Source: Ignavibacteriota bacterium (GTDB lineage: Bacteria > Bacteroidota > Ignavibacteria > UBA10030 > UBA6906). From it: 64,000 nucleotides of DNA. The notes under the pieces were generated by a model. That model was not told the DNA's origin. It was given only the letters and a program-made list of their open reading frames with translations, and did no database searches. The DNA is taken from NCBI GenBank assembly GCA_003157485.1, contig PMJQ01000101.1:11443-75442 (forward strand). The letters run 5' to 3'. Shown one piece after another: positions 31,477 to 62,871 of this stretch. The stretch's first letter is position 1, and each line of letters begins with the position of its first letter. Both the position numbers and the translations under genes were made by a program.

Positions 31477-31489
31477 TCGGAACGGGCTC

Positions 31490-40438: not shown

Positions 40439-40452
40439 GAGGAAGGAGTCAC

Positions 40453-41749: not shown

Positions 41750-42375
41750 AAATCATCGACCTGACGCACCCCGTCAGAGAATCGATCCCGGCGTATTTCC
41801 CATGGCATCCCCCCACGGTGCTTGAGCGGACCGCCAGCTACGCCGAGAACTCCTGCGTCGTGACGCGCCTGAGCATAGGGACGCACACCGGCACGCACAT
41901 CGACGCGCCGAGCCACATTTTCGAGGGGATGCATACAATTGACGGTTACGATCCCTCCCTCTGGTACCTCGATGCGCGGGTCCTCGATTTCACGCCGCGC
42001 TCTCCGCGCCAGGAGATAACGCTCGCCGATTTGAAACGAAAACGTCTCCGGAAGGGGGGGGCGGTGATTCTCAAAACCGGGTGGGACAGATATTTCGGCC
42101 GTCCGGACTATTACGCGACGTATCCTCCGCTCGGAACTGAAGCGGCGCAGTATCTCGTCAGGTGCGGGGTCCGTGCGGTGGCCTCAGACACGCCGTTCAC
42201 GCTTGATGTGCACAGGATACTCCTGAAGGAGGGAATTCCCCTCATCACGAACCTGAACAATACAGCCCGGCTGAATGCCGGGACCGTTCGCCTTGTCGCC
42301 GCCCCTCTTCTTATAGAGGGGGGAGATGGTGCGCCCGCCCGGGTCTTTGCCGTCGTGAACGGGAGTGGGAAATGA
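41746..42375 (+). CDS. cyclase family protein (kynurenine formamidase-like)
   Basis: 'SIGTHTGTHIDAPSH' (HxGTHxDxPxH), 'GAVILKTGWD'. ATGA overlap upstream. Confidence 0.8.
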   Translation: MKIIDLTHPVRESIPAYFPWHPPTVLERTASYAENSCVVTRLSIGTHTGTHIDAPSHIFEGMHTIDGYDPSLWYLDARVLDFTPRSPRQEITLADLKRKRLRKGGAVILKTGWDRYFGRPDYYATYPPLGTEAAQYLVRCGVRAVASDTPFTLDVHRILLKEGIPLITNLNNTARLNAGTVRLVAAPLLIEGGDGAPARVFAVVNGSGK

Positions 42376-43505
42376 ACTCCGATCCGCTGCTCCGGCTTCT
42401 TGCCGACCTCGTCGCCATACCGAGCGTGAATCCTATGGGACGCGGCAGGACCGGGGCGGGGTACTCGGAGAATGACGTCGCTGTGTGCGTCGAGGCATAT
42501 CTCCGCGCTCACAGGGTTGATTGCCGCCTGACGGAGGTTGCGCCCGGGCGCCCCAACGTGACGGCGTTTGTCGACGCCGGGGCGGACACGACGCTCCTCC
42601 TGGAAGCTCACACGGACACCGTGAATGCGGACTCGATGACGATTCCTCCGTTTATCCCTGAGGTGAAGAACGGGAGGTTGTACGGGAGGGGATCGTGCGA
42701 CACGAAGGGATCGCTGGCCGCGTTCCTTCACGGCGTCTGCTCGCATCTCGATGCGGGGTGCCGGCTGAGGTTCAATGTCATGATCGTGGCGGCCGCCGAC
42801 GAAGAATATCAGTTCAGCGGCGCTCTGCATGCCGTCGCCGGCGGGCTGAAGGCCGACTTCGCCGTCGTGGGGGAGCCGACGCTTCTTCATATCGTCCGCG
42901 CGCACAAGGGGGTTACCCGCTGGCGCATCGTTACGCGGGGTGTTGCAGCCCATTCCGCGTACCCCGAGAGGGGGGAAAATGCGATATACGCGATGGGACG
43001 AGTTCTCGGGAGGCTCGAGGCGTACGGGACATCTCTGAGAGGTTCCCCGCCCCATCCTCTCCTGGGGCCCCCCTCGTTCAGCGCGGGGGTCATTGAAGGA
43101 GGGGAGGCGGTCAATATCGTCCCCGGCCGGTGCACGCTGGAAGTGGACAGGCGGACGCTCCCCGGAGAGACCGCCGCGCAGGTTCTCGGTGAAGCGGCAG
43201 GCGTGCTTGGAGGCCTCGGCGGGTGGTCGTTCGACCCTCCCCACCTCTCTGTCCCGGGAATGGAAGTGTCCGTGGAGAGCCCGGCTGTCCGTTTCCTTTC
43301 CCTTGCCCTACGTGACGTGTGCGGGGAGACGCAGGTGGAGGCGGCGCAATATGCCACGGACGCGGGGGTGTACAACGGTGCGGGAATACCCGCGGTTGTG
43401 TTCGGGCCCGGCGACATCGCGCAGGCTCACACCGCGGAGGAGTGGATCGATATTGAGAACCTGCACGCGGCTGCGGCCGTGATTCGCAGACTTATTCAAC
43501 ACTAG
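42372..43505 (+). CDS. M20 family metallopeptidase / deacylase (ArgE/DapE-like)
   Basis: 'LVAIPSVNP', 'LLLEAHTDTV', 'GRLYGRGSCDTKGSLAA', 'VAAADEEYQFSG', 'AHTAEEWIDIENL'. ATGA overlap upstream. Confidence 0.85.
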   Translation: MNSDPLLRLLADLVAIPSVNPMGRGRTGAGYSENDVAVCVEAYLRAHRVDCRLTEVAPGRPNVTAFVDAGADTTLLLEAHTDTVNADSMTIPPFIPEVKNGRLYGRGSCDTKGSLAAFLHGVCSHLDAGCRLRFNVMIVAAADEEYQFSGALHAVAGGLKADFAVVGEPTLLHIVRAHKGVTRWRIVTRGVAAHSAYPERGENAIYAMGRVLGRLEAYGTSLRGSPPHPLLGPPSFSAGVIEGGEAVNIVPGRCTLEVDRRTLPGETAAQVLGEAAGVLGGLGGWSFDPPHLSVPGMEVSVESPAVRFLSLALRDVCGETQVEAAQYATDAGVYNGAGIPAVVFGPGDIAQAHTAEEWIDIENLHAAAAVIRRLIQH

Positions 43506-43527
43506 CAATCGAAGGACGAACGAAGAC

Positions 43528-44910
43528 ATGGACGAAACAACGATGGCCTATGATACGCTTCTCATACCGGACACATCAGGATTCACGTTTGGCAGGGCCC
43601 CGAAGCCGGTCGAGTGCGGATCGGGTCTGAATGTCGGGGGCGGGAAGGTCTTTCCCGAGCTGAACTTCACGCTCCCCCCGATGGCGATTACGGCGGGGAC
43701 ATGGCAGTCCGTCATGGCCGAATACAGGGAGATCGGAGAGATGATACTGCGCGCGGCCCCGAGGCTCCGTCTCCCGGGCCTCATGGTGGAATTCGAGCTC
43801 CTTCCCCCGATGACTGAGACGCCGGAGTGGGGGGCGGAGATTGTGACGCTCCTGCACGAGACGCTCCGGCGCCTGCATGAAGAGAGCGGTATTCCCTGCG
43901 CGCTCCGCGTGACGCCGACCGACATAAGGGACATGGAACGCCCCCCGCTCCTCCGCCGGGGGCGCTCGTGGGAGGCGCTGTGCGTTTCTCTCACCTCGTG
44001 CGCGCGCGCGGGTGCGGATCTCCTTTCGATCGAATCGGTCGGCGGCAAGGAAGTGCACGACCAGTCTCTCCTCTACGGGGACGTGCACGGAATGATCTTC
44101 GCCCTGGGCGTCCTTGCTCCGCGTGACATGGAATTTCTCTGGGACGCGATCGTGCGGATCTGCAAAGAGACTGGGGTCGTCCCCGGTGCCGACTCGGCGT
44201 GCGGATTTGCGAACACTGCGATGCAGCTGGCTGGACAGGGGATGCTCCCCGAGGTCCTGGCTGCCGTCGTACGCGCCGCCTCCGCGGTCAGGAGCCTCGT
44301 CGCATTCTCGCGCGGGGCCGTGGGCCCTTCCAAGGATTGTGCGTACGAAGGACCTGTGATCAAGGCCATCACCGGAGCTCCGATCTCCATGGAAGGGAAA
44401 TCGGCGTCATGCGCGCATTTCAGCCCGGTGGGGAATATCGCCTCCGCGCTGTGCGACCTCTGGAGTAACGAATCGGTCCAAAACGTCAGGCTCCTCTCCG
44501 GATCCGCCCCCGAAGCGTTTCTGGAATCTCTTGCGTACGACTGCCGGGTCATGAACCAGGCGCTCCGCAGTGGGCGTGAGAGGGAGTACCGCGACCTCCT
44601 TGTCGAATCTGATGTCCATCTGAGCCCACAGGCGCTTGTCCTCTCCCCGGATTCCACGATCAGGATTGCGGAGTCTATCGTCCGGGAAACGACGCCGTAT
44701 CGTCAGACATGCTCCGCGGCCCGTGAGGCGGTCACGCTGATCCGGGATGCGATACGCGAGGAGAGGCTCGTTATCCCGAAGCGGGAGTCGCAGTGGCTCG
44801 ACAGGATAGAATCCGCTCTCGATTCTCTTCCTGAAAAGGAAGAGGAGCTGATCGCGCCCATGATCGGGAGCTACGGCAGCCTGTTCACCCCGTCGAGTTA
44901 CGGACTCTGA
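43528..44910 (+). CDS. mtaB: MtaB-family methyltransferase (methanol:corrinoid methyltransferase homolog)
   Basis: Full-length collinear similarity to my recollection of Methanosarcina MtaB: 'ADLLSIESVGGKEVHD', 'GADSACGFANTAM', 'AVGPSKDCAYEGPVIKAITGAPISMEGKSASCAH', 'CDLWSNESVQ', 'LAYDCRVMNQAL', C-terminal '...PSSYGL'. Confidence 0.8.
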   Translation: MDETTMAYDTLLIPDTSGFTFGRAPKPVECGSGLNVGGGKVFPELNFTLPPMAITAGTWQSVMAEYREIGEMILRAAPRLRLPGLMVEFELLPPMTETPEWGAEIVTLLHETLRRLHEESGIPCALRVTPTDIRDMERPPLLRRGRSWEALCVSLTSCARAGADLLSIESVGGKEVHDQSLLYGDVHGMIFALGVLAPRDMEFLWDAIVRICKETGVVPGADSACGFANTAMQLAGQGMLPEVLAAVVRAASAVRSLVAFSRGAVGPSKDCAYEGPVIKAITGAPISMEGKSASCAHFSPVGNIASALCDLWSNESVQNVRLLSGSAPEAFLESLAYDCRVMNQALRSGREREYRDLLVESDVHLSPQALVLSPDSTIRIAESIVRETTPYRQTCSAAREAVTLIRDAIREERLVIPKRESQWLDRIESALDSLPEKEEELIAPMIGSYGSLFTPSSYGL

Positions 44911-44918
44911 GTGAGACC

Positions 44919-45869
44919 ATGAGCGCGTCGGCGGCCCTTGGAGAGTGGATCATGGGACTGGATATCGGCGGGACAAAGACCGCCGTTGTCGCAGGAGACT
45001 CACTCGGCGGCGTCCTCCACCGTGATCAGTTTCCCACAGAACCGGCGCGGGGGTTCAGTGACGTCTATGCCCGGATACAGAGATCGATGGCCCGGGTTGC
45101 GTCGCACATGGGGAGTTCCCCGCACGCGGTGAGCGTCTCCATCGGCGGCCCTCTCGATGTCCGGCGGGGGATCATCAAGTCACCGCCGAACCTCCCGGGG
45201 TGGACGGACATCCCGCTTAAGGAGATGCTCTCCCGGGAGTTCCCTGTCCCCGTGTTCGTCGAACACGACGGGAACGCGGGTGCGCTGGCTGAATGGTACT
45301 TCGGGGCCGGAAAGGGGTTCAGGAACATCGTGTTTGTGACAATGGGGACGGGGTTCGGGGCGGGACTGATACTGGACGGGAGGCTTTACAGGGGGACGAG
45401 CGATGTGGCCGGGGAGATCGGTCATGTGCGCGTTGCCGAGGAAGGGCCCGACTGCTACGGCAAAGCGGGCTCGCTTGAAGGATTCGGCAGCGGAACGGGG
45501 ATCGCGCGCCTCGCCCGGACGATGTACCCCGCTCTCTGGGGCGAAGACTCCACGGTCATCGACGTTGAGGAATCGTACAGGGGGGGATCGCGCGAGGCGG
45601 CGTCTGTTTTTTCAAGGGCCGCGATCGGTCTGGGGCGCGGACTGGCGATCGTGGCCGATATGCTGAATCCCGAGCGGATCATACTCGGCGGGCTCGGCAT
45701 GCGTCTCTCGGAGTCGCTCGTCAGACCCGCTATGAGGATCTATGAGGCCGAGGCTCTTCCCGGGGCTCGGAACGTGTGCGAGATCGTCCCGGCCGGCCTG
45801 GGTGAGAGGATCGGCGACATCGCCGCTCTCTGCGCTGCATACGACCAGGGCGCACTCCTCGCGCCCTGA
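44919..45869 (+). CDS. ROK family sugar kinase
   Basis: 'MGLDIGGTKTAVV', 'VFVEHDGNAGALAEW', 'GTGFGAGLILDGRLYRG', 'AGEIGHVRV...CYGKAGSLE'. The start may be the internal 'MGLDIGG' at 44952. Confidence 0.85.
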   Translation: MSASAALGEWIMGLDIGGTKTAVVAGDSLGGVLHRDQFPTEPARGFSDVYARIQRSMARVASHMGSSPHAVSVSIGGPLDVRRGIIKSPPNLPGWTDIPLKEMLSREFPVPVFVEHDGNAGALAEWYFGAGKGFRNIVFVTMGTGFGAGLILDGRLYRGTSDVAGEIGHVRVAEEGPDCYGKAGSLEGFGSGTGIARLARTMYPALWGEDSTVIDVEESYRGGSREAASVFSRAAIGLGRGLAIVADMLNPERIILGGLGMRLSESLVRPAMRIYEAEALPGARNVCEIVPAGLGERIGDIAALCAAYDQGALLAP

Positions 45870-45908
45870 TGTGCCGCCGGGGAAAATTCACATGACACGG
45901 AGATTCAC

Positions 45909-47048
45909 ATGAGAGAGCTTGCGATCCCCCTGGATCACCCTTCACCCGACGGGGGCGAATTCATCGACATACTCTCGGGGCGGTCCCCTTCACACAGGGT
46001 CCCTCTCGTCGAATATCTCGTGGACGACGCAGTGATGAAGCCGGTCCTGGAGGAGATGCTCGGACGGCGGTGGGTCAACCCCGGCAGTGACAGGGAGTCG
46101 CAGCGGGCCTCTCTCGACAACCGCATTGAATTCTGGTACCGGATGGGATACGATTTCATCCGGCACGAGGAGAGCCTCCCGCTGCCGGAGAAAAAACTCA
46201 TGGGGCATGATCCGGCGATGCCCGTGGCGCAGAAGGCGCCGCCGGATGCGCCGGCTCGTCTGTGGGCGGACGAGCATCAGGGTGCGATCATGTCATGGGA
46301 GGATTTTGAGAAGTATCCCTGGCCTGCCGTGGAAGAATTTGATTTCTTCGGATACGAGTACCTGAGCCGGAACCTCCCGGAGGGGATGGGGCTCGTCGCC
46401 TGCCACGCCGGAGGGGTGTTCGAACATCTCTCATGGATCATGTCTCTCGAGGGGCTCTCTGTGGCGCTTCACGAAGATCCGGAGCTCGTCAGAGCGGTCG
46501 CAGACAGGCTGGGGCATCTGATGGAGGGGTTCTACAGGCACGTCCTTGATCTCGATAACCTCATCGCCGTCTTCCCCGGGGACGACATGGGGTACAAGTC
46601 GGCGACGCTCGTGGCGCCCGGGATTCTCCGGACGTATGTTCTCCCCTGGCATGCGAGGTTTGCGGCGATGACGCACGCGAAGAATCTTCCCTATTACCTC
46701 CACTCCTGCGGCAGGGTGGATGCGGTCATGGAGGACCTGATCACGGACGTGGGAATCGACGGAAAACATTCGTTCGAGGACGGCATCGTCCCCGTCCAGG
46801 ATTTCCAGGCCAGGTACGGCGGCAGGATCGCTGTCCTCGGGGGGATCGACATCAACATACTCGCAGGCCCTTCCCCTGATGACGTGCGGCACGCGACGAG
46901 CCGGCTGATCACCGTGTGCGGATCGCGCGGCCGCTACGCCGTCGGATCGGGGAACTCCATCCCGAGTTACGTCCCATGCGGAAATTATCTCGCCATGATC
47001 GACGAGGCGCACCGCGCGAACAATGATATGCTCTCTCCCCGGAGATAA
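45909..47048 (+). CDS. uroporphyrinogen decarboxylase (UROD) family protein, MtaA/CmuA-like, with H-x-C-G motif
   Basis: 'VFPGDDMGYKSATLVAPGILRTYVLPWHARF', 'YYLHSCGRVDAVMEDLITDVGIDGKHSFED', 'AVGSGNSIPSYVPCGNYLAM'. Confidence 0.75.
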   Translation: MRELAIPLDHPSPDGGEFIDILSGRSPSHRVPLVEYLVDDAVMKPVLEEMLGRRWVNPGSDRESQRASLDNRIEFWYRMGYDFIRHEESLPLPEKKLMGHDPAMPVAQKAPPDAPARLWADEHQGAIMSWEDFEKYPWPAVEEFDFFGYEYLSRNLPEGMGLVACHAGGVFEHLSWIMSLEGLSVALHEDPELVRAVADRLGHLMEGFYRHVLDLDNLIAVFPGDDMGYKSATLVAPGILRTYVLPWHARFAAMTHAKNLPYYLHSCGRVDAVMEDLITDVGIDGKHSFEDGIVPVQDFQARYGGRIAVLGGIDINILAGPSPDDVRHATSRLITVCGSRGRYAVGSGNSIPSYVPCGNYLAMIDEAHRANNDMLSPRR

Positions 47049-47057
47049 GGAGGTCAA

Positions 47058-49316
47058 GTGAAGGTTCGCCTGACGATGGTCCTGCTCTGCGCGCTCGCGT
47101 TTCAGGTTGTGCAGGCACAGAAGCGGGAGTACCTGGAGGACATACGCGCCGCGGCGGAAAAAGGGTGGAATGACGACCCCGCTGTTGTCGCCGCGTGGAA
47201 GAAGCACGCGGATCCGAACGTCCTCTGGGGATACAACCCGCCGGCGCATCCCGTCTATTGTGCGGCCGTGTCCGGCTTCCTCTTTGAACAGACGCACGAG
47301 CGTGTGTACGCCGAGAGAGCGGCCGCGCTTCTCAGTTCGTACGGCGATCTCCGGGCCTCGATCCCTCACGGGTACGCCGGGTCGCGCATCGAGTACGAAA
47401 ACGGCGTCCCGTCCCTCACGAACTTCTTCTTCCTTCCCCCGTACGTCCGAGCATATCTCGCGATCCGGTCAAGCGACGCGCTTGACGCACGCCAACGCGC
47501 GAATATCGAAGGAGAGATCGCGGAGAGCGTCGACTTCATATTCCGCTTCCCCGAGTGGGGGGCACACAACCGCGCCATGCTCAGGGCAGAGGCCCTTGCG
47601 TACGCCGCGCTGGCGCTCCCGTCCCATCCGCATGCGGCGAAGTGGAGGCAAATGGCGCAGGTCCTCGCCTCGGACAATATCCGTTCCTGGGAGATCGAAG
47701 ACGCGTCGAACTACAACCCGGTCTGGCTTCACGCCCTCTTCTCGTATGCCTCCGCCGCGGGGGATTCGGGGGTGTACACCTCGGCGGTGATGAGATACTA
47801 CATGGAGTACTACACGAGGCTCATCTCCCCCGCCGGGACCGTTCCCGATTTCGGAGACGCGGGATGGAATAACGCCTCCGGAGGGCTCCGTCTCGTGGCG
47901 GTGTTCGAGAAAGGCGCGGCGGTGTTCCGCGATCCCGCATTGAAATGGGCCGCACAGTCCGTGTACAACACCGCGAAGAGGAGAGAGAGCATTCTCGGGA
48001 TAGACGAGGCATATCACCTCGCGGATGCGTTCCGCTGGGCCGCGGAGTCCGTTTCCCCGGTCGTCCCTTCCGGCGGGAGCCAGGAGGTTCTGGACGATGT
48101 CGTGGGGAAGAAGGTGGTCTTCCGCGGGGGGTGGGATTCTTCCGCGTCGTATCTCCTTCTCAACTACAGGGACGAGGGGGACGGAGGATGGCTCTCCCGG
48201 CAGTACCTTCGTCAGACGATCACCGTCGAGGAGGAAAAGATGACGCACGGCCATGCCGACGAGAATTCGATCGTGCTCCTGATGGACAGGGGATCCGTCC
48301 TGCTTCACGACGGGGGGTACAGAGATTCCCTCCCGAGCGGCCGGTTCGGCGCGTGGAGGCAGGATTACTTCCACAATCGGATTGTCGCGCGGAAGAACAA
48401 GCGCGACATGAGCCAGTCGCTCCTTGCATTCGTGCGGAACTCCGGAGCGTACCGCCGCGTGAAAACCGAAAAGATCGATTTTCTTGCGCTTCGCTCGGTC
48501 GACATGAGCCGGACGCGGCTCGTGGACGAGGAACTCGGGTATCGCTGGGACCGCGTGATCACGTGGGTGAGGGACCCGGGGTACTATGTCGTTGTTGACG
48601 GCATACAGGCCATCCGCCCGGAGTATTTCACGTTTGCCTCGCTCTGGCACGCGCAGAACGTCCTGGAGCGGGGGGAGCATTACTTCGACATTGCCACGGA
48701 TTCCGTCCCGGGATACAGGTTTCCGCCGGGGCGGTCTCTCCTCGTCTTCTTCCCGGAGACATACGCGAAAACCGAGGGGGTGGAGGATGAGCGGAGGCAC
48801 TCCCAGCAGGAGCACGTCGTGTTCCAGACGATCTCGAGCCAGTACAAGGCGCTCGACATGGAGCTCTTCGTCACCGTTCTCGTGCCGCACGACCGTTCGG
48901 TCTCACCCCGTTCGTTCATCCCCGCCTTCCGGCTTCTCCCGACGTCCGCCCCCTACCGCGCCGTGGCGCTTGAGGTCACGCGGGGAAACCTCAAGAGCAC
49001 GCTCTTTGTGAAGCTCGACCTTGAAATGGAAATTGCGCGCGAGAACATCCGCCCGCGGTATCTCTACGATGCCGGCAGGGTCAGGTTCGGGGACTTTGAG
49101 ACCGACGCCCACTTCCTCTACGCGGAGGAGACCCCCGACTCGATCCGGTATTCCGCTTCGAACATGCTGAAAGTCGTCTACAGGGGGAAAGCGCTCATGG
49201 AGGCGCTTCCGAACACGCACGGGCTCCAGCCCGACGGCGGGCCGGACAACCACGTCGGGTACTCGAAATGGCGGTACTGGGAAGAAGCGTTCTCACTCAA
49301 GGAAAAGGGACAATGA
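47058..49316 (+). CDS. secreted heparinase II/III-like polysaccharide lyase family protein
   Basis: GTG start with SD AAGGAGG 5 nt upstream. Signal 'MKVRLTMVLLCALAFQVVQAQ'. 'EWGAHNRAMLRAEALAYAALAL', 'THGHADENSIVLLMDRGSVLLHDGGY'. Confidence 0.7.
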   Translation: MKVRLTMVLLCALAFQVVQAQKREYLEDIRAAAEKGWNDDPAVVAAWKKHADPNVLWGYNPPAHPVYCAAVSGFLFEQTHERVYAERAAALLSSYGDLRASIPHGYAGSRIEYENGVPSLTNFFFLPPYVRAYLAIRSSDALDARQRANIEGEIAESVDFIFRFPEWGAHNRAMLRAEALAYAALALPSHPHAAKWRQMAQVLASDNIRSWEIEDASNYNPVWLHALFSYASAAGDSGVYTSAVMRYYMEYYTRLISPAGTVPDFGDAGWNNASGGLRLVAVFEKGAAVFRDPALKWAAQSVYNTAKRRESILGIDEAYHLADAFRWAAESVSPVVPSGGSQEVLDDVVGKKVVFRGGWDSSASYLLLNYRDEGDGGWLSRQYLRQTITVEEEKMTHGHADENSIVLLMDRGSVLLHDGGYRDSLPSGRFGAWRQDYFHNRIVARKNKRDMSQSLLAFVRNSGAYRRVKTEKIDFLALRSVDMSRTRLVDEELGYRWDRVITWVRDPGYYVVVDGIQAIRPEYFTFASLWHAQNVLERGEHYFDIATDSVPGYRFPPGRSLLVFFPETYAKTEGVEDERRHSQQEHVVFQTISSQYKALDMELFVTVLVPHDRSVSPRSFIPAFRLLPTSAPYRAVALEVTRGNLKSTLFVKLDLEMEIARENIRPRYLYDAGRVRFGDFETDAHFLYAEETPDSIRYSASNMLKVVYRGKALMEALPNTHGLQPDGGPDNHVGYSKWRYWEEAFSLKEKGQ

Positions 49317-50155
49317 AAACAACGACGGTGAATTCGGGCCGCACGATACGCATACAGAGGATCTGGAAACACCCCCGTGCGGTCATCATCCCCTATGATC
49401 ACGGCACCTACTCGGGAGTTGTCAAAGGACTCGAGGACCCCCTGCGCCTCACGGAGAGGATCGCCCGTTCGAAGGCCGACGCGGTTCTCGTGACGCCGGG
49501 CGTCCTCAGGATCATCGCCCCGGCCGTCGGAAATCTCGGCGTCGTCCTCAGGATCGACGGCGCGTATACGTCATACGCCACTGCCCCGACTGATTTCCTC
49601 TCGATGATAACGCCGGAGGACGCCCTGCGGCTCGGCGCGGATGCGGTGATCGTCTTCACGTTCATCGGCATTCCGGACGAGGCGTCTTCACTCCAACGGC
49701 TGGGGCGGACCTCCGCGGACGCCGGGCTGTGGGGGATCCCTCTCATCGCGGAAGTCCTCGCTCCCGGCTACCTGAACAATCACTTCGGCACGGATATATT
49801 CCCCCGTGCGGGGCGGAAGACGGATATGGTCGCCGACACGAGGAATGTCTCGCGCATCGCCATGGAGGCGGGGGCGGAGATCATCAAGACGAGGTACACG
49901 GGGGACGTCGCCGGGTTCCGCTCCGTCGTGGAAACCTGCGGGGCGCCCGTGATCGTCGCCGGGGGGCCGAAACTGGACGGGACGGACGAATCCCTTCTCC
50001 GGCTCGCGCACGATTGCATGGGCGCGGGGGCCGCCGGGATCATATTCGGCCGGAACGTCTGGCAGCACCCGAAAATGGAACGCCTGATCAACGCGATCTG
50101 CGCGATCGTCCATGAGGAGGAGAGCGTCCAGTCCGCCCTGAAACTGCTCAGATGA
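49313..50155 (+). CDS. class I aldolase of the DhnA/FbaB (DeoC/LacD superfamily) type
   Basis: 'AVIIPYDHG', 'DAVLVTPG', 'AEIIKTRYTGD' (Schiff-base Lys context), 'APVIVAGGPK', 'AGIIFGRNVWQHP'. ATGA overlap upstream. Confidence 0.75.
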   Translation: MKTTTVNSGRTIRIQRIWKHPRAVIIPYDHGTYSGVVKGLEDPLRLTERIARSKADAVLVTPGVLRIIAPAVGNLGVVLRIDGAYTSYATAPTDFLSMITPEDALRLGADAVIVFTFIGIPDEASSLQRLGRTSADAGLWGIPLIAEVLAPGYLNNHFGTDIFPRAGRKTDMVADTRNVSRIAMEAGAEIIKTRYTGDVAGFRSVVETCGAPVIVAGGPKLDGTDESLLRLAHDCMGAGAAGIIFGRNVWQHPKMERLINAICAIVHEEESVQSALKLLR

Positions 50156-51078
50156 TACTGACGGTCACGCTGAACCCGATGCTGGACAAGACGGTCTCCG
50201 TCGGCGCACTGCGCCGGGGGGCCGTCACGCGTGCCTCCGGCGTGTCGATGATCGTCGGGGGAAAAGGGGTCAATGTGTCACGGCAGCTGCGCACGCTTGG
50301 AGAGGAGACGCTCGCCACCGGGTTTGTCGGGGGCGAAATTGGCTCGCTCCTGGAGAGGCTCCTTGACGGCGAGGGGATTGCGCACCGGTTCATCCGCACA
50401 GGGGGGATGACCCGGGAAGGCGTTACATACCTGGAGCCGGACGGTACGATGACGTCCGTGTTCGAGCCCCCCGGTGCGGTGACCCGCGCGGAAGTGGAGC
50501 GCCTCCTGGAAACGTGCGATGCGCTCGCCGGGAAGAGCGACTGGGTTGTCTGCAGCGGAAGCTCCCCCGCGCCTGATGCGGACGACGTATTCCGGACAAT
50601 CGCCGCGTCGTGCCGATCGCGCGGCGTTCCCGTGGTCCTCGATTCGTACGGCAACGCGCTCGTGCGGGGCCTCGAGTCCGTTCCCGACATACTGAAGCCG
50701 AACAGGGAGGAATACGAGCAGGCGTTCGGGACGCACATTTCGGGGGAAAGCGGCATGATCGCCGCGGCGCGGGACCTCGTCGGCCGCGGGGTCCGGTATG
50801 CAATCGTGACCGACGGGGCGCGCCCGTTTGCGGCCGCTGACGCGGACGGAGCGTGGATCGTCACACCGCCGCGTGTGACATCCGTCGACCCGACGGGGTC
50901 GGGGGACAGCATGATTGCGGGTATGCTCTACGGGCTCAGAAGGTCCTGGCCGTTCGCCGACTGTGTGCGGTTCGGGGCAGCCTCCGGCGCCGCCAATGCC
51001 CGGGTCCGGGAGGTCGCGCGCTCCTCCCGGGAGGTGATCGAGCCGCTCCTCCCGGACGTCGTCATGAAACGCATATAA
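50152..51078 (+). CDS. 1-phosphofructokinase / tagatose-6-phosphate kinase-type PfkB hexose-phosphate kinase
   Basis: 'MILTVTLNPMLDKT', 'GGKGVNVSRQL', 'DILKPNREE', 'VDPTGSGDSMIAGMLYGL'. ATGA overlap upstream. Confidence 0.8.
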   Translation: MILTVTLNPMLDKTVSVGALRRGAVTRASGVSMIVGGKGVNVSRQLRTLGEETLATGFVGGEIGSLLERLLDGEGIAHRFIRTGGMTREGVTYLEPDGTMTSVFEPPGAVTRAEVERLLETCDALAGKSDWVVCSGSSPAPDADDVFRTIAASCRSRGVPVVLDSYGNALVRGLESVPDILKPNREEYEQAFGTHISGESGMIAAARDLVGRGVRYAIVTDGARPFAAADADGAWIVTPPRVTSVDPTGSGDSMIAGMLYGLRRSWPFADCVRFGAASGAANARVREVARSSREVIEPLLPDVVMKRI

Positions 51079-51088
51079 CTCTTCCCGG

Positions 51089-52117
51089 ATGCCGAACCGT
51101 TTTCTCCGCGCCGTGAATCTCGAACCCTCCGACGGGGTCCCGTTTGTCCCCGCGGTGTACGAGCACAAAGCCTGGTTCATCGGCAGGACCCCTTCGGAGG
51201 TCTGCCGCGAAGGCTCGCTTCTCGTCGAGTCCGTCCTCGCGGAATACGAAGCGCTCCATCCCGACGCACTCGTCGTGGGGATTGACGTGTACAACGTGGA
51301 GGCGGAGGCCTGCGGATGCCCCGTGACGTATTTCGAACCGCCGGATTCGTCAATCCCGTCACTGGCGCCCGGCTCGGAGGTCATCACGGAAGAGAGGCGT
51401 CCCCGCACGCTCGTCCTCCCGGATCCTTCGGATGCGGGAAGGATGCCCATGATTCTCGAATCGACGGCAAGAGCGAGGGACGCTCTGGGACCGGAAGTCG
51501 AAGTCATGGGGGCGCTCTCTGCGCCGTTCAGCCTTGCGGCCTCGCTGATGGGGGGGGCGAACCTCTTCATGGCAATGGCGGCGGAACCCGCCGCCGCGCA
51601 CAGCGCAATCAGCTTTGCCGCGGATGTCGTTACACGGTACGGGCAGGCATTCGCCCGGCGGGGGCTCCAGGCGGCGCTCTTTGACTCCCAGGCCTCTCCC
51701 GGACTCATCTCTCCGCGCTCGTACAGGGAATTTGTCCTCGGACCCACTCAGAGGGTCGTGAGGGACCTCACAAGCGCGGGGATGAGCTACGTCCCCCTCG
51801 TTATCGGGGGAAACACCGATCCGATCGTGGAGGCGTATGTCGAGACGGGGGGGAACTACCTCCTGTGCGACGGCGGGGGGTCGGTGGAACGGTTTCTCCC
51901 GGCGTGCTGCGCTGCGAAGCGCGCATTCAGGAGGAATATCCCCGCCCCGTTCCTCCTCTCCGCATCCGTACCGGAAATTGAACAGAGGGTCCGGGAGGAG
52001 ATAGAATCCGCCGGGGGGTACGAGGGATTCATGCTCGGCACGGGGATCGTTCCGTACGGCATACCGACGGAGAAAATACTTGCCGCGCGCCCTGCGCGAT
52101 CGCAGAATCATTCATAA
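51089..52117 (+). CDS. UROD family protein, MtaA/CmuA-like, lacking the H-x-C motif
   Basis: 'FLRAVNLEPSDGVPFVPAVYEHKAWFIG', 'YNVEAEACGCPVTYFE', 'MGALSAPFSLAASLMG', 'LFDSQASPGLISPRSYREFVL'. 'LVIGGNT' occupies the position of H-x-C-G. Confidence 0.7.
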   Translation: MPNRFLRAVNLEPSDGVPFVPAVYEHKAWFIGRTPSEVCREGSLLVESVLAEYEALHPDALVVGIDVYNVEAEACGCPVTYFEPPDSSIPSLAPGSEVITEERRPRTLVLPDPSDAGRMPMILESTARARDALGPEVEVMGALSAPFSLAASLMGGANLFMAMAAEPAAAHSAISFAADVVTRYGQAFARRGLQAALFDSQASPGLISPRSYREFVLGPTQRVVRDLTSAGMSYVPLVIGGNTDPIVEAYVETGGNYLLCDGGGSVERFLPACCAAKRAFRRNIPAPFLLSASVPEIEQRVREEIESAGGYEGFMLGTGIVPYGIPTEKILAARPARSQNHS

Positions 52118-52142
52118 CCGAACAACAACGACAGGACACGAG

Positions 52143-54467
52143 ATGCCCACGCTCCGCCAGTTTCTCTCAACGATGAACGTCATCGCATGCACACCTTCCG
52201 GCCCGCTCGTCGAAAAGACCGTCGCACGCGCCCTCCTCGCCTCCGCCCCGGGGGCGGAGATCCGTGAATCCCCGGGTCTCGGCGCCCCCTCCGGGACCAT
52301 ACGCGTCGCCGTCGTCCCGGATGGAACGCGAGGGGAGTCGATTCACCCCGCGCTTGCGGGGAAGACAGGCTGGATGATCATCCGGGTGAAGGGGGGGGTC
52401 GAGATCCTCACGGACAGGGAGCATCTCCTCTACGGGCTCTACACGCTTGTCGATGAGGAATTGCATGCGGCCGACGCCGCCTCGCTCCGCGAAGGGCGGA
52501 TATTCACAAGTGCGTTCCCCGAGGTGCGTCCGGTGTTTGACTTATTTCTGACGCAGTGGGGGCGCACCGTCGGGAAATTCGACAGGGAAGAGCATATCCG
52601 GACAATGGCGCGCATGGGAAATTCCCACGTCGAGGTGAACGGGCTTGCCTTTCACGTTCCGTTCGAGAGGGGGCCGAAGGGGGAGCTCCTCCACCGCTTT
52701 TATACGTATGCGCCGGCGCTCGATCAGTTTGTGACAAGCCGCCTGAACAAGGGGTCTTACGACGATGATTACCTGCAGGCGAACCTGAATTATCTCAGAA
52801 CCAACGCGGCGCTGGCGGAGAAATACGGCCTGACGCCGGGGATTGTCTGCTTTGAGCCGAGGTCTGTCCCCGACGGGCTCCTGGAGCGCTACCCTGTGCT
52901 GCGCGGCGCGCGCGTCGATCATCCGATGAGGAGCTTCCATCCCCGCTACAATCTTTCCGTGGCGCATCCGGTGGTGCTTGAACACTACGCCGAAATGATG
53001 GAGAATCTGATGAAAGAGGTCCCCCGTCTCGGGTACATGTCGGTCTGGTCCAACGACAGCGGCGCCGGATTCGAGTACACGAGTTCCCTCTACGTGGGAA
53101 GGAACGGGGGAGGATACCTTGTCCGGGAATGGCTTGCGGCGAAGGACATCGCCGCCGCCGCCGCGTTCAATCTCGTCCGGTTCATGAAAACGCTCCGGGA
53201 CGCGGGAAGGAAGACCAATCCACGGTTCCGCACGCTCATCCGGCTCGAACCGTTCTGGGAGGAGCTGGACCACATCTGGAAGCTCCTCGAGGACGGGCTC
53301 GACGTCGAGGTGTCATCCCTTCTGACACGGGGGTGGGAGCTCTCATACAAGCACCCGAAGTACGAGGAGGTTCCCCAGATACACGGTACCGCCCTGTTCA
53401 GCCAGTTTGCGGAGTCGGAGAAGCCGGTCATGCAGGAGCTCGTGGCGAAGGGCGCACGTGCCGACATCTATTTCGTTCCGGAGATACTCGGGAACCACGA
53501 GCCGCTCATGGGGATCCCATTCCCGCGCCTGGTCCATGAAAAACTGGCGGCCATGCGGCGGGCCGGGGTGGCCGCCGCGGCGTATCAGGGAGGGCCGACC
53601 CCTCCGTCGTTCGTTCCGTACAACATCAACCAGGAGATCGTCCGCGCGTATCAGTTCGATCCGGGCATGGATCTCGACGCATTCATGAGGCGGAAGGCGG
53701 AGGAGTGGGCGGGGCGCTCGCTCGCCGGAGATCTCGTGAAGCTCTGGGAACTCTCCGACGACGCGTTCCGTTCGTTCCCCATACCGATCTGGATTTATGC
53801 GGGATGGGGCGTCTGGTACCGCCTGTTCATCCGTCCCATCGTCCCGAACATCGAAGCAATCCCGGAAAAGGAGCGGGAATATTACGAGAACTTCCTCCTG
53901 GCAACGACGCACAACAGGACGCGCGTGGATTTCCGGTACGACGTCGGGTTCGATCTCATTGAGCCTGAACGCGCGTGGAAGGCCGTCGCGCACATGGACG
54001 GGGACCTCCTCCCGGCGATGGCGAATATACTCGATCTCGTGGCGGCGATGGAGAAGAGGGCCGTGACGCCCGCGGAGAGGGCGCTCGTGGAGGACCAGCG
54101 CGACCGGATGGTCGCGCTCAAATGCTGGTACAGGACGGAGCGGAACGTCACGGCATGGGTCGCGGGCGTTCACGGGTACATGGAATCGAAGGACGAATCG
54201 TTCCGGAAGAAATGCCGCGCCCTGCTGAAGGGGATGGTCCTGGACGAAATCGACAACACAAAGGATCTGATCAGGCTCTGGGAGACGGCCCGGACGAACT
54301 GGATGATGGTTTCGGATGTGGGTGAAACGACGTTCGTCTACTATAAGAACATGGGGGAGCTCATGAAGAAGAAAATTGCCCTTATGCAGGGGCATGAAAA
54401 CGATGAGCCGTATGTGGATCCCGACTTTCAGTGGCGCGTCCCCGGGTTCACACCGGAAAGCAGGTAG
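52143..54467 (+). CDS. uncharacterised ~770-aa cytoplasmic protein, family A copy 2 (paralog of 8886..11114)
   Basis: See 8886..11114. The N-terminal 'GWMIIRVKGGVEILTDREHLLYGLYTLVDE' is reminiscent of GH20b/GH67N-type N-domains (impression only). No signal peptide. Confidence 0.6.
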   Translation: MPTLRQFLSTMNVIACTPSGPLVEKTVARALLASAPGAEIRESPGLGAPSGTIRVAVVPDGTRGESIHPALAGKTGWMIIRVKGGVEILTDREHLLYGLYTLVDEELHAADAASLREGRIFTSAFPEVRPVFDLFLTQWGRTVGKFDREEHIRTMARMGNSHVEVNGLAFHVPFERGPKGELLHRFYTYAPALDQFVTSRLNKGSYDDDYLQANLNYLRTNAALAEKYGLTPGIVCFEPRSVPDGLLERYPVLRGARVDHPMRSFHPRYNLSVAHPVVLEHYAEMMENLMKEVPRLGYMSVWSNDSGAGFEYTSSLYVGRNGGGYLVREWLAAKDIAAAAAFNLVRFMKTLRDAGRKTNPRFRTLIRLEPFWEELDHIWKLLEDGLDVEVSSLLTRGWELSYKHPKYEEVPQIHGTALFSQFAESEKPVMQELVAKGARADIYFVPEILGNHEPLMGIPFPRLVHEKLAAMRRAGVAAAAYQGGPTPPSFVPYNINQEIVRAYQFDPGMDLDAFMRRKAEEWAGRSLAGDLVKLWELSDDAFRSFPIPIWIYAGWGVWYRLFIRPIVPNIEAIPEKEREYYENFLLATTHNRTRVDFRYDVGFDLIEPERAWKAVAHMDGDLLPAMANILDLVAAMEKRAVTPAERALVEDQRDRMVALKCWYRTERNVTAWVAGVHGYMESKDESFRKKCRALLKGMVLDEIDNTKDLIRLWETARTNWMMVSDVGETTFVYYKNMGELMKKKIALMQGHENDEPYVDPDFQWRVPGFTPESR

Positions 54468-54468
54468 C

Positions 54469-58212: not shown

Positions 58213-58218
58213 GGAATT

Positions 58219-59598: not shown

Positions 59599-59614
59599 GG
59601 GAGTGTGCGTGCGG

Positions 59615-59641: not shown

Positions 59642-59694
59642 CGTGCGGCGCATCGCCAGAGGCCTCTGCGCGTTTCTGACAATCTCTGAGAGGG

Positions 59695-62861: not shown

Positions 62862-62871
62862 CGGCGTGGCC

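What the first reader, a model, noticed from the sequence alone, without database searches (positions are those of the whole stretch)
43528..44910. Orphan MtaB-family gene with apparently intact metal-site motifs, lacking an adjacent MtaC and flanked by a peptidase and a sugar kinase
In methanogens and acetogens mtaB is normally adjacent to its corrinoid partner mtaC. Here it lies between an M20 deacylase and a ROK sugar kinase, about 18 kb from the only corrinoid protein gene and on the opposite strand. Motifs that I recall carrying the Zn ligands of Methanosarcina MtaB (a Glu in the xES-xGGKE motif and Cys residues in the D-x-x-C and KDC motifs) have counterparts here: 'SIESVGGKEV', 'GADSACGFANTAM' and 'PSKDCAYEG'. 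That argues for a functional enzyme. The substrate could be methanol or a different small methyl ether or alcohol derived from the glycan.
Basis: partly seen in the sequence, partly recalled or inferred. Interest (0 to 1): 0.65.

Follow-up and report, generated by a model that had tools for sequence, protein, structure and literature searches.

The report
Methanol methyltransferase inside a glycan operon
A peat bacterium (Ignavibacteriota) carries an intact, transcribed MtaB-type methanol:corrinoid methyltransferase inside a long sugar-breakdown operon, and its vitamin-B12 partner protein sits at the far end of the same locus, so the gene is a relocated part of a complete methyl-capture system rather than an orphan.

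Summary
ORF 43528-44910 (+) is a full-length MtaB-family protein (Pfam 521 bits). Its model superposes on M. barkeri MtaB at TM 0.93. The three Zn-ligand positions are conserved. M20 and ROK genes flank it, and the only corrinoid-protein gene lies 18 kb away on the other strand.

"Orphan" is misleading. MtaB sits in a tight co-directional operon with two URO-D (MtaA-like) genes. That operon ends convergently on URO-D–corrinoid protein–homocysteine methyltransferase–DUF1638–RACo.

Relatives support this partnership. Orthologues of this corrinoid protein (58-64% identity) lie directly beside MtaB in Acidobacteriota. In most Ignavibacteriota, Bacteroidota, Kryptoniota and KSB1 relatives the same sugar genes carry an adjacent MtaC-MtaB pair. 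The window lineage is therefore a rearranged version, under purifying selection (dN/dS about 0.1) and transcribed in wetland metatranscriptomes.

The protein belongs to a distinct bacterial clade: 37% identity to methanogen MtaB and 46% to Eubacterium MtaB. I found no clade-wide active-site changes.

Best reading: methanol is the donor, and the methyl group passes through the corrinoid protein to homocysteine or folate. Direct demethylation of a methylated sugar is not excluded.

Bacterial mtaB in this peatland is already published at survey level. I found no description of the glycan-operon coupling.

The parts
43528..44910 (+). MtaB-family methanol:corrinoid methyltransferase (MT1), 460 aa. 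Putative Zn ligands are E169, C225 and C271.
   Evidence: Pfam PF12176, 521 bits. PDB 2i2x_A at E 4e-94. AF2 model pLDDT 86; Foldseek TM 0.93 to 2i2x_A. Ligand columns conserved. dN/dS about 0.1. RNA contigs at 43485-43825 and 44395-44682.
42372..43505 (+). M20 ArgE/DapE-family deacylase, 22 nt upstream of mtaB
   Evidence: Pfam Peptidase_M20 plus M20_dimer. TIGR01910 scores above its cut-off. Conserved next to MtaB in window-type relatives.
44919..45869 (+). ROK-family sugar kinase, 8 nt downstream of mtaB
   Evidence: Pfam ROK, 174 bits. Best NCBIfam match is the ROK glucokinase subfamily, below its cut-off.
45909..47048 (+). URO-D superfamily, MtaA-like protein (UROD_a). It carries an HxC motif (H265, C267) and C337, so it is a candidate Zn-dependent methylcorrinoid:acceptor methyltransferase (MT2).
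   Evidence: Pfam URO-D, 51 bits. Weak MtaA/CmuA matches. Motif found.
47058..49316 (+). Secreted 752-aa protein with weak heparinase II/III-like similarity (hep752)
   Evidence: Pfam Hepar_II_III_C at E 0.006, below threshold. PDB 4fnv at E 0.23. An N-terminal signal-like sequence is visible in the translation. Conserved in type A and type B loci.
49313..50155 (+). DhnA-type class I aldolase (DeoC/LacD family)
   Evidence: Pfam DeoC. NCBIfam ADH-synthase and class I FBP aldolase matches.
50152..51078 (+). PfkB-family hexose-phosphate kinase (1-PFK / tagatose-6-P kinase type)
   Evidence: Pfam PfkB. TIGR03168 scores 267 bits, above its 216-bit cut-off.
51089..52117 (+). URO-D / MtaA-like methyltransferase (UROD_b). 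It lacks the HxC zinc motif.
   Evidence: Pfam URO-D, 143 bits. Nearest PDB sequence is MtaA 4ay7 at E 8e-17. Motif check.
52143..54467 (+). Conserved cytoplasmic 774-aa protein with no Pfam domain. Its predicted fold is glycoside-hydrolase-like (GH138/GH20/GH67/GH115-like). In most relatives it lies immediately downstream of MtaB.
   Evidence: No Pfam, NCBIfam or PDB sequence hit. 1415 homologues. AF2 pLDDT 80. Foldseek top hit is GH138 6hzf at E 2e-14. Synteny.
54469..55644 (+). Glycerate kinase
   Evidence: Pfam Gly_kinase, 439 bits.
55641..57425 (+). Sodium:solute symporter
   Evidence: Pfam SSF. Gene called as 594 aa on the source contig.
57418..58212 (+). Short-chain dehydrogenase
   Evidence: Pfam adh_short. 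NCBIfam matches.
58219..59598 (+). Unknown 459-aa protein, last gene of the plus-strand operon
   Evidence: No family hit. Conserved in relatives.
59695..61212 (-). RACo/RamA-like ATP-dependent reductive activase of corrinoid proteins, with a 2Fe-2S domain
   Evidence: Pfam Fer2, Raco_middle and RACo_C_ter.
61209..61958 (-). DUF1638 protein. This family is genetically linked to B12 reactivation in split methionine synthases.
   Evidence: Pfam PF07796. Price et al., bioRxiv 10.1101/192971.
61983..62948 (-). Homocysteine S-methyltransferase-domain protein, a candidate MT2 (called as 292 aa on the source contig). The Zn cysteines are present (GANCG, GGCCG).
   Evidence: Pfam PF02574, 228 bits. 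NCBIfam YitJ N-terminal and BHMT-like matches. Sequence.
62872..63507 (-). Corrinoid protein, 211 aa (B12-binding cap plus B12-binding domain, with a DLHDIG motif). It is the proposed partner of MtaB.
   Evidence: Pfam PF02607 and PF02310. NCBIfam MtgC-like / pyl_corrinoid matches. Orthologues at 58-64% identity lie adjacent to MtaB in Acidobacteriota.
63528..64000 (-). C-terminal part of a third URO-D family methyltransferase (349 aa on the source contig). It is the first gene of the minus-strand operon and is cut by the window end.
   Evidence: NCBIfam MtaA/CmuA weak match. Full gene seen on the window's own contigs.
7838..8863 (+). Core-MetE-like short methionine synthase with H215-x-C217 and C310. 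Orthologues sit next to MtaC-MtaB in Kryptoniota and Bacteroidota loci.
   Evidence: Pfam Meth_synt_2. NCBIfam PRK04326 at 310 bits, below its cut-off. Synteny in L015, L016, L018, L025 and L036.

Best explanation
The gene encodes a working MT1 enzyme of a corrinoid-dependent methyl-transfer system.

Proposed mechanism:
- Zn(II), held by E169, C225 and C271, polarises the C-O bond of methanol.
- The Co(I) of a corrinoid protein takes the methyl group.
- The partner is the 211-aa corrinoid protein at 62872-63507, at the other end of the same locus.
- RACo and DUF1638 keep that cobalt reduced.
- Methyl-Co(III) is then unloaded either onto homocysteine, by the PF02574 protein and/or the core-MetE-like protein, giving methionine; or onto tetrahydrofolate or a thiol, by a URO-D/MtaA-like enzyme such as UROD_a.

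The arrangement resembles a split methionine synthase used as a hub that accepts alternative methyl donors.

The system is built into a glycan-catabolic operon. The likely reason is that methanol, or methyl groups, are released while methylated or methyl-esterified plant or microbial glycans are degraded in peat.

Shown here: family membership, fold, ligand conservation, locus composition, synteny in relatives, purifying selection and transcription.

Inferred only: methanol as the donor, the identity of the partner corrinoid protein, the acceptor, and the source of the methanol.
For: Family and fold:
- Pfam 521 bits. TM 0.93 and rmsd 2.0 A over 460 columns to 2i2x_A, with no extra domains.
- Of 68 columns invariant in five reference MtaBs (M. 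barkeri clade plus Eubacterium clade), 55 are invariant and identical across the window clade. There is no clade-wide replacement apart from F439L.
- The motifs GDSACGFANTAM, GPSKDCAYEGP and CDLWSNESVQ are almost identical to those of Eubacterium maltosivorans MtaB.

Partner and toolkit:
- The locus has a corrinoid protein, RACo, DUF1638, a homocysteine methyltransferase and three URO-D genes.
- In Acidobacteriota the operon is CoP-MtaB-DUF1638-RACo-URO-D, with a homocysteine methyltransferase as well in L062. Its corrinoid protein is 58-64% identical to the window's. The neighbours there are unrelated housekeeping genes.
- A Chthonomonadales relative has CoP-MtaB-x-URO-D-HcyMT-DUF1638.
- Kryptoniota loci have URO-D-MtaC-MtaB-x-core-MetE.
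- The convergent adjacency of the two operons recurs in L091 and L092.

Selection and expression:
- dN/dS is 0.09-0.12.
- RNA contigs match the locus exactly.

Literature:
- Split methionine synthase with a RamA-like protein and DUF1638 (10.1101/192971).
- The same corrinoid hub serves glycine betaine demethylation and methionine synthesis in Ruegeria (PMC12478193).
- Core methionine synthases take methyl groups from corrinoid proteins (PMC7857596).
- Methanol was measured in Stordalen Mire, and bacterial mtaB is expressed there (PMC10805028).
Against: - No biochemical data exist for any member of this clade.
- The protein scores 425 bits against the NCBIfam MtaB_Meth equivalog, whose cut-off is 720.
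- It is only 37% identical to M. barkeri MtaB.
- The conserved embedding among sugar kinases, an aldolase and a GH-like protein in four phyla would also fit a sugar-derived methyl donor.
- No recognisable methanol-releasing esterase, such as CE8, was found in the window.
- No pterin-binding module was found in the window, so a route to folate rests on URO-D paralogues of unknown specificity.
- Conservation of the CoP-operon adjacency was shown only in fairly close relatives.
Confidence: 0.6

Rival explanations
1. The MtaB-family enzyme takes the methyl group directly from an O-methylated sugar or uronic acid released by the locus's glycan enzymes (for example 4-O-methyl-glucuronate, or 2-O- or 3-O-methyl hexoses or deoxyhexoses). 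It would then be an oxygen-independent sugar demethylase, and the free sugar would be phosphorylated by the adjacent ROK kinase.
For: - MtaB sits between a deacylase and a ROK kinase.
- The same sugar gene set accompanies MtaB or MtaC-MtaB in at least 22 of 80 loci from Ignavibacteriota, Bacteroidota, Kryptoniota and KSB1. The set comprises ROK, PfkB, a class I aldolase, the heparinase-like protein, the GH-like 774-aa protein, glycerate kinase and SSF.
- The gene immediately downstream of MtaB in most of these loci has a predicted fold like GH138, GH67 and GH115 uronidases. GH67 and GH115 act on 4-O-methyl-glucuronyl side chains.
- A methyl alkyl ether is chemically close to methanol as a substrate for Zn/Co(I) SN2 chemistry (inference).
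Against: - There are no clade-specific changes in family-invariant columns.
- There are no insertions relative to 2i2x (TM 0.93).
- As I recall the MtaBC structure, the corrinoid plugs the funnel and leaves room only for a small molecule.
- The same clade occurs in stand-alone methyltransferase operons without sugar genes in Acidobacteriota and as solo genes.
- The URO-D paralogues are at least as plausible as ether-cleaving MT1 enzymes, by analogy with aromatic O-demethylases.
Confidence: 0.2
2. MtaB uses another small methyl donor, such as a methoxylated C2-C3 acid or aldehyde left after aldolase cleavage of a methylated sugar, or a methyl ester or methyl glycoside aglycone. Alternatively it serves a housekeeping methionine synthase with no functional link to the sugar genes, the placement being a neutral rearrangement.
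For: - Glycerate kinase and a class I aldolase are conserved next to the methyltransferase genes. This would fit demethylation at the C3 level.
- Solo copies in unrelated contexts are common: 24 of 80 loci.
- Gene order differs between lineages.
Against: - The same arguments from active-site conservation favour methanol.
- The association with the sugar set recurs across four phyla in two different gene orders, which argues against pure chance.
Confidence: 0.15
3. The gene is a decaying or non-catalytic remnant left after loss of its adjacent MtaC.
For: No corrinoid-protein gene lies within 10 kb of it in the window lineage.
Against: - The ORF is intact and all ligand positions are present.
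- dN/dS is 0.09-0.12 within the lineage that lacks the adjacent MtaC.
- Exact-match metatranscriptome contigs lie on the gene.
- It is tightly spaced inside an operon, with gaps of 22 and 8 nt.
Confidence: 0.03

Closest known systems
MtaB of the MtaABC methanol:coenzyme M methyltransferase of Methanosarcina barkeri (PDB 2I2X)
   Same: Same Pfam family and the same TIM-barrel fold over the whole length (TM 0.93). The E/C/C zinc-ligand positions and the flanking motifs are the same. A separate corrinoid protein and a URO-D-family MT2 are expected, as in MtaABC.
   Different: Only 36-37% identical, and in a separate bacterial clade. It scores below the NCBIfam equivalog cut-off. It is not adjacent to its corrinoid protein. 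The host is a glycan-degrading Ignavibacteriota bacterium, not a methanogen. The acceptor cannot be coenzyme M in the methanogenic sense; homocysteine or folate is likely.
MtaB of methanol-using acetogens (Eubacterium limosum/maltosivorans group; Acetobacterium, Moorella, Sporomusa)
   Same: Closest named relative, at 46% identity to E. maltosivorans MtaB. The active-site motifs are almost identical.
   Different: Acetogens place mtaB beside mtaC and mtaA and feed the Wood-Ljungdahl pathway for energy. Here the gene sits in a sugar operon, no Wood-Ljungdahl genes are in view, and the nearby acceptor enzymes are homocysteine methyltransferases.
Split methionine synthase / MtgBCDE hub of Phaeobacter inhibens and Ruegeria pomeroyi (Price 2018; Mausz 2025)
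   Same: Both have a stand-alone B12-binding protein, a stand-alone PF02574 homocysteine-binding protein, a RamA/RACo-like activase and DUF1638. In both, one corrinoid protein is proposed to be shared by a catabolic MT1 and methionine synthesis.
   Different: The MT1 here is MtaB (methanol), not MtgB (glycine betaine). No pterin-binding (PF00809) module is in the window; a URO-D protein occupies that position in the operon. The host phylum is Ignavibacteriota, not Alphaproteobacteria.
Three-component aromatic O-demethylases of acetogens and Desulfitobacterium (MT1, corrinoid protein, MT2, activating enzyme)
   Same: The overall logic and parts list are the same, including URO-D-superfamily methyltransferases and a RACo-type activase.
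   Different: Those MT1 enzymes belong to the URO-D superfamily and act on phenyl methyl ethers. An MtaB-family MT1 is not part of them, and no aromatic-catabolic genes are present here.
Cytochrome P450 6-O-methyl-D-galactose demethylase of marine Bacteroidota (PMC6292453)
   Same: It is a functional analogue only if the locus removes methyl groups from sugars. Both would clear a methyl block in glycan catabolism within a polysaccharide locus.
   Different: The chemistry is unrelated. The P450 performs oxidative, O2-dependent demethylation to formaldehyde, whereas this system would perform corrinoid methyl transfer. There is no homology.

Membership tests
MtaB family (Pfam PF12176) | Full-length match to the family profile above the gathering score | tested here: met
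   521 bits against a 25-bit cut-off; residues 11-459 cover profile positions 7-460 of 460.
MtaB family (Pfam PF12176) | TIM-barrel fold of MtaB as in PDB 2I2X | tested here: met
   AF2 model pLDDT 86 and pTM 0.89. Foldseek to 2i2x_A gives E 2e-37, TM 0.93/0.94 and rmsd 2.0 A over 460 columns.
MtaB family (Pfam PF12176) | Zinc ligands Glu-164, Cys-220 and Cys-269 (M. barkeri numbering; ligand identity recalled from Hagemeier 2006) | tested here: met
   E169, C225 and C271 align to them. All 13 clade sequences in the family alignment (12 relatives plus the window) keep them. Of 115 full-length top hits, 112 carry all three motifs.
MtaB family (Pfam PF12176) | Gene adjacent to its corrinoid partner mtaC | tested here: not met
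   The nearest B12-binding gene is 17,962 bp away on the other strand. In the clade, 47 of 80 loci do have one within 2.6 kb.
MtaB family (Pfam PF12176) | Methanol-dependent methylation of Co(I)-corrinoid | not testable with these tools
   This needs an anaerobic enzyme assay.
Methanogen-type MtaB equivalog (NCBIfam NF040651 MtaB_Meth) | Score above the curated equivalog cut-off | tested here: not met
   425 bits against a 720-bit cut-off. It is 37% identical to M. barkeri MtaB and lies in a separate clade of the NJ tree.
Three-component corrinoid methyltransferase system (MT1 + corrinoid protein + MT2 + activase) | Corrinoid protein with a B12-binding cap, a Rossmann domain and a DxHxxG motif, in the same locus | tested here: met
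   PF02607 plus PF02310. The DLHDIG motif is in the sequence.
Three-component corrinoid methyltransferase system (MT1 + corrinoid protein + MT2 + activase) | ATP-dependent reductive activase (RACo/RamA type) | tested here: met
   Fer2, Raco_middle and RACo_C_ter at 59695-61212.
Three-component corrinoid methyltransferase system (MT1 + corrinoid protein + MT2 + activase) | A dedicated MT2 that unloads the methyl-corrinoid | tested here: inconclusive
   There are four candidates: UROD_a with an HxC motif, the PF02574 protein, the core-MetE-like protein and UROD_c. Which of them acts, and on what acceptor, is unknown.
Split methionine synthase (Price 2018 / Mausz 2025) | Separate B12-binding and homocysteine-binding (PF02574, Zn-Cys3) proteins together with a RamA-like protein and DUF1638 | tested here: met
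   All four are in one minus-strand operon. The motifs GANCG and GGCCG are present.
Split methionine synthase (Price 2018 / Mausz 2025) | Separate pterin-binding (methyl-THF) module | tested here: not met
   None of the scanned window proteins hits a pterin-binding family. The rest of the genome is not available.

The most novel reading that the evidence does not exclude
MtaB-family enzymes of this bacterial clade, alone or together with the URO-D paralogues, are the demethylating step of an undescribed oxygen-independent pathway for O-methylated sugars or uronic acids such as 4-O-methyl-glucuronate. One version has the methyl group taken directly from the sugar ether. Another has methanol generated inside the pathway, for example by beta-elimination through the heparinase-like protein or by the GH138/GH67/GH115-like 774-aa protein. 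In either case the methyl group is funnelled through a split-methionine-synthase-type corrinoid hub into methionine or folate. This would be the anaerobic counterpart of the P450 sugar demethylases.
Probability: 0.2. Interest if true: 0.85.

Novelty: new variant of a known kind. Interest (0 to 1): 0.55.

Why it matters
- Methyl ethers and esters on plant and microbial glycans are a large but poorly traced pool of C1 units in peat.
- Suppose common glycan degraders capture methanol or sugar-bound methyl groups with a B12 system wired into their polysaccharide operons, and use them for methionine or folate. They would then compete with methylotrophic methanogens for methanol. This would affect how methane production in thawing permafrost is modelled. 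The relevant degraders are Ignavibacteriota, Bacteroidota, Kryptoniota, KSB1, Acidobacteriota and Armatimonadota.
- The finding extends the idea that a split methionine synthase serves as a hub for alternative methyl donors. That idea was shown for glycine betaine in marine Alphaproteobacteria; here it would apply to methanol and to other phyla.
- It supplies a defined, testable enzyme set. That set includes a conserved GH-like family with no Pfam domain.

Tried and rejected
- The MtaBC structure paper (PMC1748152) could not be opened. The identity of the Zn ligands and the description of the pocket therefore rest on recollection.
- The sigma-70 promoter and terminator scan of 41000-60500 gave counts at shuffle level and says nothing about operon structure. 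These phyla also use other promoter types.
- PDB sequence searches for the 774-aa and 752-aa proteins and for two URO-D paralogues found nothing useful.
- Literature searches found no paper on this clade or on corrinoid-dependent sugar demethylation. The searches combined MtaB with Ignavibacteria, Acidobacteria and polysaccharide utilisation, and methylated sugar or methyl-glucuronic acid with corrinoid.
- The CdmB chloromethane system is URO-D-type, not MtaB-type.
- The mlp gene-cluster preprint concerns MtaA-like proteins and does not cover this locus.
- I considered a reductive-pyrimidine-like or N-acyl-amino-acid module as the source of the methyl donor. Its parts would be the DHO-dehydrogenase-like protein, ferredoxin, cyclase, M20 and the NSAR-type enolase. 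I found no link to methyl chemistry.
- I considered a pseudogene or remnant and rejected it on dN/dS and transcription.
- I could not inspect the substrate pocket, because model coordinates are not exposed.
- I could not check for a second mtaCB elsewhere in the genome, because only the window and its contigs are available.
Full report
**1. The observation**

The ORF 43528-44910 (+) is real, 460 aa, and starts with ATG. It matches Pfam MtaB (PF12176) end to end at 521 bits. It matches the only solved MtaB, M. barkeri 2i2x_A, at E 4e-94.

E169, C225 and C271 align with E164, C220 and C269 of the M. barkeri enzyme. I recall those residues as the Zn ligands from Hagemeier et al. 2006; the paper is not held.

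An AlphaFold2 model built on 22 clade sequences has pLDDT 86 and pTM 0.89. It superposes on 2i2x_A with TM 0.93 and rmsd 2.0 A over 460 columns, with no added or missing domains.

The flanking genes are an M20 ArgE/DapE-type deacylase and a ROK kinase. The window holds one B12-binding gene, at 62872-63507 on the minus strand, 17,962 bp away.

**2. What surrounds it**

Almost every gene from 952 to 59598 is on the plus strand. Around mtaB the spacing is operon-like. The order, with gaps or overlaps in nucleotides, is:

- FAH-type hydrolase, then NSAR/OSBS-type enolase (overlap 4)
- DHO-dehydrogenase-like protein, then 2x[4Fe-4S] ferredoxin, then cyclase
- M20 (overlap 4)
- MtaB (gap 22)
- ROK (gap 8)
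- URO-D 'a' (gap 39)
- secreted heparinase-like 752-aa protein (gap 9)
- DhnA-type aldolase
- 1-PFK-type PfkB kinase
- URO-D 'b' (gap 10)
- 774-aa unknown protein (gap 25)
- glycerate kinase (gap 1)
- SSF transporter, then SDR, then 459-aa unknown protein

Ninety-six nucleotides after the last gene, a convergent minus-strand operon ends. On the window's own contigs it reads URO-D (349 aa) – corrinoid protein (211 aa) – PF02574 homocysteine S-methyltransferase (292 aa) – DUF1638 – RACo.

Further upstream lie a SusC-like TonB receptor, GH38, BNR proteins, heparinase-like proteins, a core-MetE-like gene (7838-8863) and several large proteins with no Pfam domain.

The 18 kb between mtaB and the corrinoid gene is therefore filled entirely by genes of one locus. 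That locus contains every class of part a corrinoid methyltransferase system needs.

**3. Source and expression**

The window matches peat and permafrost metagenome contigs, namely a WOOD18 Stordalen Mire scaffold and JGI peat assemblies. The nearest species-level genome is an Ignavibacteriota MAG, with MtaB 92% identical.

Contigs from four wetland metatranscriptomes match without mismatch on mtaB (43485-43825 and 44395-44682). They also match M20, URO-D a, the 752-aa gene, PfkB, the 774-aa gene, SSF and the 459-aa gene. The caveat is that DNA carry-over in RNA libraries cannot be excluded.

**4. Relatives**

The protein has thousands of homologues. The 120 best are 66-100% identical, and those that carry a name are called Bacteroidota, Ignavibacteria or KSB1.

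A scan of 185,579 species genomes found 332 loci. The best 80 come from Ignavibacteriota, Bacteroidota, Kryptoniota, KSB1 (Zhuqueibacter), Acidobacteriota and Methylomirabilota.

In an NJ tree with 50%-identity cluster representatives of the family, these form one clade. It is 37% identical to M. barkeri MtaB and 46% to Eubacterium maltosivorans MtaB. The nearest outside representatives that could be named (P0121, P0125) are from Armatimonadota. The tree has no support values.

The protein scores 425 bits on NCBI's methanogen MtaB equivalog, whose cut-off is 720. It is a member of the MtaB family but not of the characterised methanogen subfamily.

**5. Context in relatives, the key result**

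- **Type A: eight loci (L008-L014 and the short-contig fragment L044), 71-92% identity.** The order is the window's, with MtaB between M20 and ROK and no corrinoid gene within 10 kb. Where longer flanks were fetched (L091, L092), the convergent URO-D–CoP–HcyMT–DUF1638(–RACo) operon follows the last sugar gene, as in the window.
- **Type B: about 20 loci at 64-68% identity, from four phyla.** The same genes are present, but with MtaC 0.7 kb upstream of MtaB. These genes are the DHO-dehydrogenase-like protein, cyclase, M20, ROK, the 752-aa protein, the aldolase, PfkB, URO-D b, the 774-aa protein, glycerate kinase and SSF. The order is ...PfkB–URO-D–MtaC–MtaB–774-aa protein. Kryptoniota have URO-D–MtaC–MtaB–x–core-MetE.
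- **Type C: Acidobacteriota, 61-64% identity.** The order is CoP–MtaB–DUF1638–RACo–URO-D(s), plus HcyMT in L062. The neighbours are unrelated housekeeping genes. Their corrinoid protein is 58-64% identical to the window's. The type-B MtaC is only 47% identical to it.
- **A Chthonomonadales relative** has ferredoxin–CoP–MtaB–x–URO-D–HcyMT–DUF1638.
- **Solo copies.** Twenty-four of the 80 loci have a solo MtaB.
- **Overall,** 47 of 80 loci have a corrinoid gene within 2.6 kb.

I draw three conclusions:

- An adjacent corrinoid protein is the common state in this clade, and the window lineage is a rearrangement.
- The window's corrinoid protein is of the kind that partners this MtaB clade elsewhere.
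- The link to a particular set of carbohydrate genes is conserved across phyla and in two different gene orders.

**6. Is the enzyme retooled?**

Of 68 alignment columns invariant in five reference sequences, 55 are invariant and identical in all 13 clade members examined. The references are M. barkeri with two cluster representatives near it, and E. maltosivorans with one near it. The remaining 13 columns vary only in some members, apart from F439L near the C-terminus.

The motifs around the ligands are almost the same as in the Eubacterium enzyme. dN/dS against two type-A relatives is 0.09 and 0.12.

Nothing points to a changed pocket, but I could not examine the pocket itself.

**7. Mechanism proposed**

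MtaB methylates the Co(I) form of the 211-aa corrinoid protein with methanol. RACo and DUF1638 restore Co(I) after oxidation.

Methyl-Co(III) is then unloaded onto homocysteine by the PF02574 protein and/or the core-MetE-like protein. Alternatively it is unloaded onto folate or a thiol by a URO-D paralogue. UROD_a keeps an HxC...C zinc-type motif, whereas UROD_b and UROD_c do not.

This follows three precedents:

- The split methionine synthase with a RamA-like protein and DUF1638 found in Phaeobacter (10.1101/192971).
- The shared corrinoid hub for glycine betaine demethylation and methionine synthesis in Ruegeria (PMC12478193).
- Core methionine synthases that take methyl groups from corrinoid proteins (PMC7857596).

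MtaB recurs in one operon with a homocysteine-methylating enzyme in four lineages: the window, Terracidiphilus L062, Chthonomonadales L095 and Kryptoniota. This recurrence is the main support for homocysteine as an acceptor. All of this step is inference.

**8. Where the methyl comes from**

Methanol is present throughout Stordalen Mire, and Acidobacteriota there express mtaB (PMC10805028). Free methanol is therefore a sufficient explanation, and the stand-alone acidobacterial operons fit it.

The conserved embedding in a sugar operon asks for more. The 774-aa protein has no Pfam, NCBIfam or PDB sequence match. Its model (pLDDT 80) resembles GH138, GH20, GH67, GH115 and GH89 enzymes: an N-terminal domain, a TIM barrel and a helical C-terminal domain, with top E 2e-14 and TM 0.55. 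Several of those families remove uronic acids, and GH67 and GH115 remove 4-O-methyl-glucuronic acid.

Heparinase II/III-like proteins accompany MtaB in type A, in type B and even beside a solo copy.

One possibility is that a locus enzyme releases methanol from a methylated uronic acid or ester. Another is that MtaB or a URO-D paralogue takes the methyl group from the sugar directly. I found no recognisable methylesterase in the window, and I cannot decide between these options.

**9. Comparison with the known, and novelty**

The protein is a new, uncharacterised bacterial subfamily of a known enzyme family.

That bacteria in this very peatland carry and express mtaB is already published at survey level (PMC10805028). 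That paper's main text does not mention polysaccharides, Bacteroidota, Ignavibacteria or methionine.

In the held literature I found no description of three things:

- the conserved placement of mtaCB inside glycan operons of the FCB group;
- the pairing with a split-methionine-synthase-type module;
- the 774-aa family.

I therefore rate it a new variant of a known kind, of moderate interest.

**10. Verdict**

The reading 'functional enzyme in a sugar-associated, non-methanogen clade' is supported. 'Orphan' is not supported.

The substrate is most likely methanol (about 0.6), with a sugar-derived methyl donor as the main alternative (about 0.2).

Noticed in passing
window 52143-54467 (+): Conserved 774-aa cytoplasmic protein with no Pfam, NCBIfam or PDB sequence match and 1415 homologues. 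Its predicted fold resembles GH138, GH20, GH67, GH115 and GH89. It lies directly downstream of MtaB in most Ignavibacteriota, Bacteroidota and KSB1 loci. It is probably an undescribed glycoside hydrolase family.
   Followed up: partly
window 59695-64000 (-): Operon URO-D–corrinoid protein–PF02574 homocysteine methyltransferase–DUF1638–RACo. It looks like a split methionine synthase in which a URO-D protein stands where the pterin-binding module would be.
   Followed up: partly
window 7838-8863 (+): Short core-MetE-like methionine synthase (341 aa, with HxC and a C-terminal Cys) near the SusC-like receptor. Orthologues at 64-66% identity sit 3.8 kb downstream of MtaC-MtaB in Kryptoniota and Bacteroidota loci L015, L016, L018, L025 and L036.
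   Followed up: partly
window 39332-43505 (+): A run of NSAR/OSBS-type enolase, DHO-dehydrogenase-like protein, 2x[4Fe-4S] ferredoxin, PF04199 cyclase and M20 ArgE/DapE deacylase just upstream of mtaB. It looks like N-acyl-amino-acid or cyclic-amide processing rather than sugar chemistry. Its role in the locus is unexplained.
   Followed up: no
window 45909-47048, 51089-52117 and 63528-64000: Three URO-D/MtaA-like paralogues in one locus. Only the first keeps an HxC...C zinc-type motif, while the other two lack it. This suggests different roles, either MT2 against zinc-free MT1-like, or a folate-handling enzyme.
   Followed up: partly
window 11131-11922 (+): A PhyH-family Fe(II)/2-oxoglutarate dioxygenase, which depends on O2, in the same gene string as oxygen-sensitive Co(I) chemistry. 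A catalase gene lies next to a solo MtaB in locus L005. The hosts may be facultative.
   Followed up: no
window 4044-6677, 8835-11114, 11926-13533, 13530-15773, 14960-18046, 27567-29363, 31346-33349 and 58219-59598: Many large ORFs with coding-type GC3 and no, or only sub-threshold, Pfam matches, inside what looks like a polysaccharide utilisation region. They are possibly novel carbohydrate-active enzymes. The ORFs 13530-15773 and 14960-18046 overlap, so one start is probably miscalled.
   Followed up: no
P0063 (Kryptoniota homologue, also L018): One clade member has Ser instead of the second zinc-ligand Cys (GDSASGFAN). Three of the 115 full-length top hits fail a simple three-motif check.
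   Followed up: no
L035/L045 and L061/L071: Some MAGs carry two MtaB copies of this clade on different contigs. Paralogy exists, so a second copy in the window's genome cannot be excluded.
   Followed up: no
L093 7354-8280: In one type-B relative the PfkB kinase upstream of URO-D–MtaC–MtaB is called as two fragments (140 and 79 aa). It is either a pseudogene or an assembly error.
   Followed up: no
L091 17435-19242: In the 92%-identity relative the RACo gene at the junction of the two operons is replaced by another URO-D gene and small ORFs. The activase must be encoded elsewhere in that genome.
   Followed up: no
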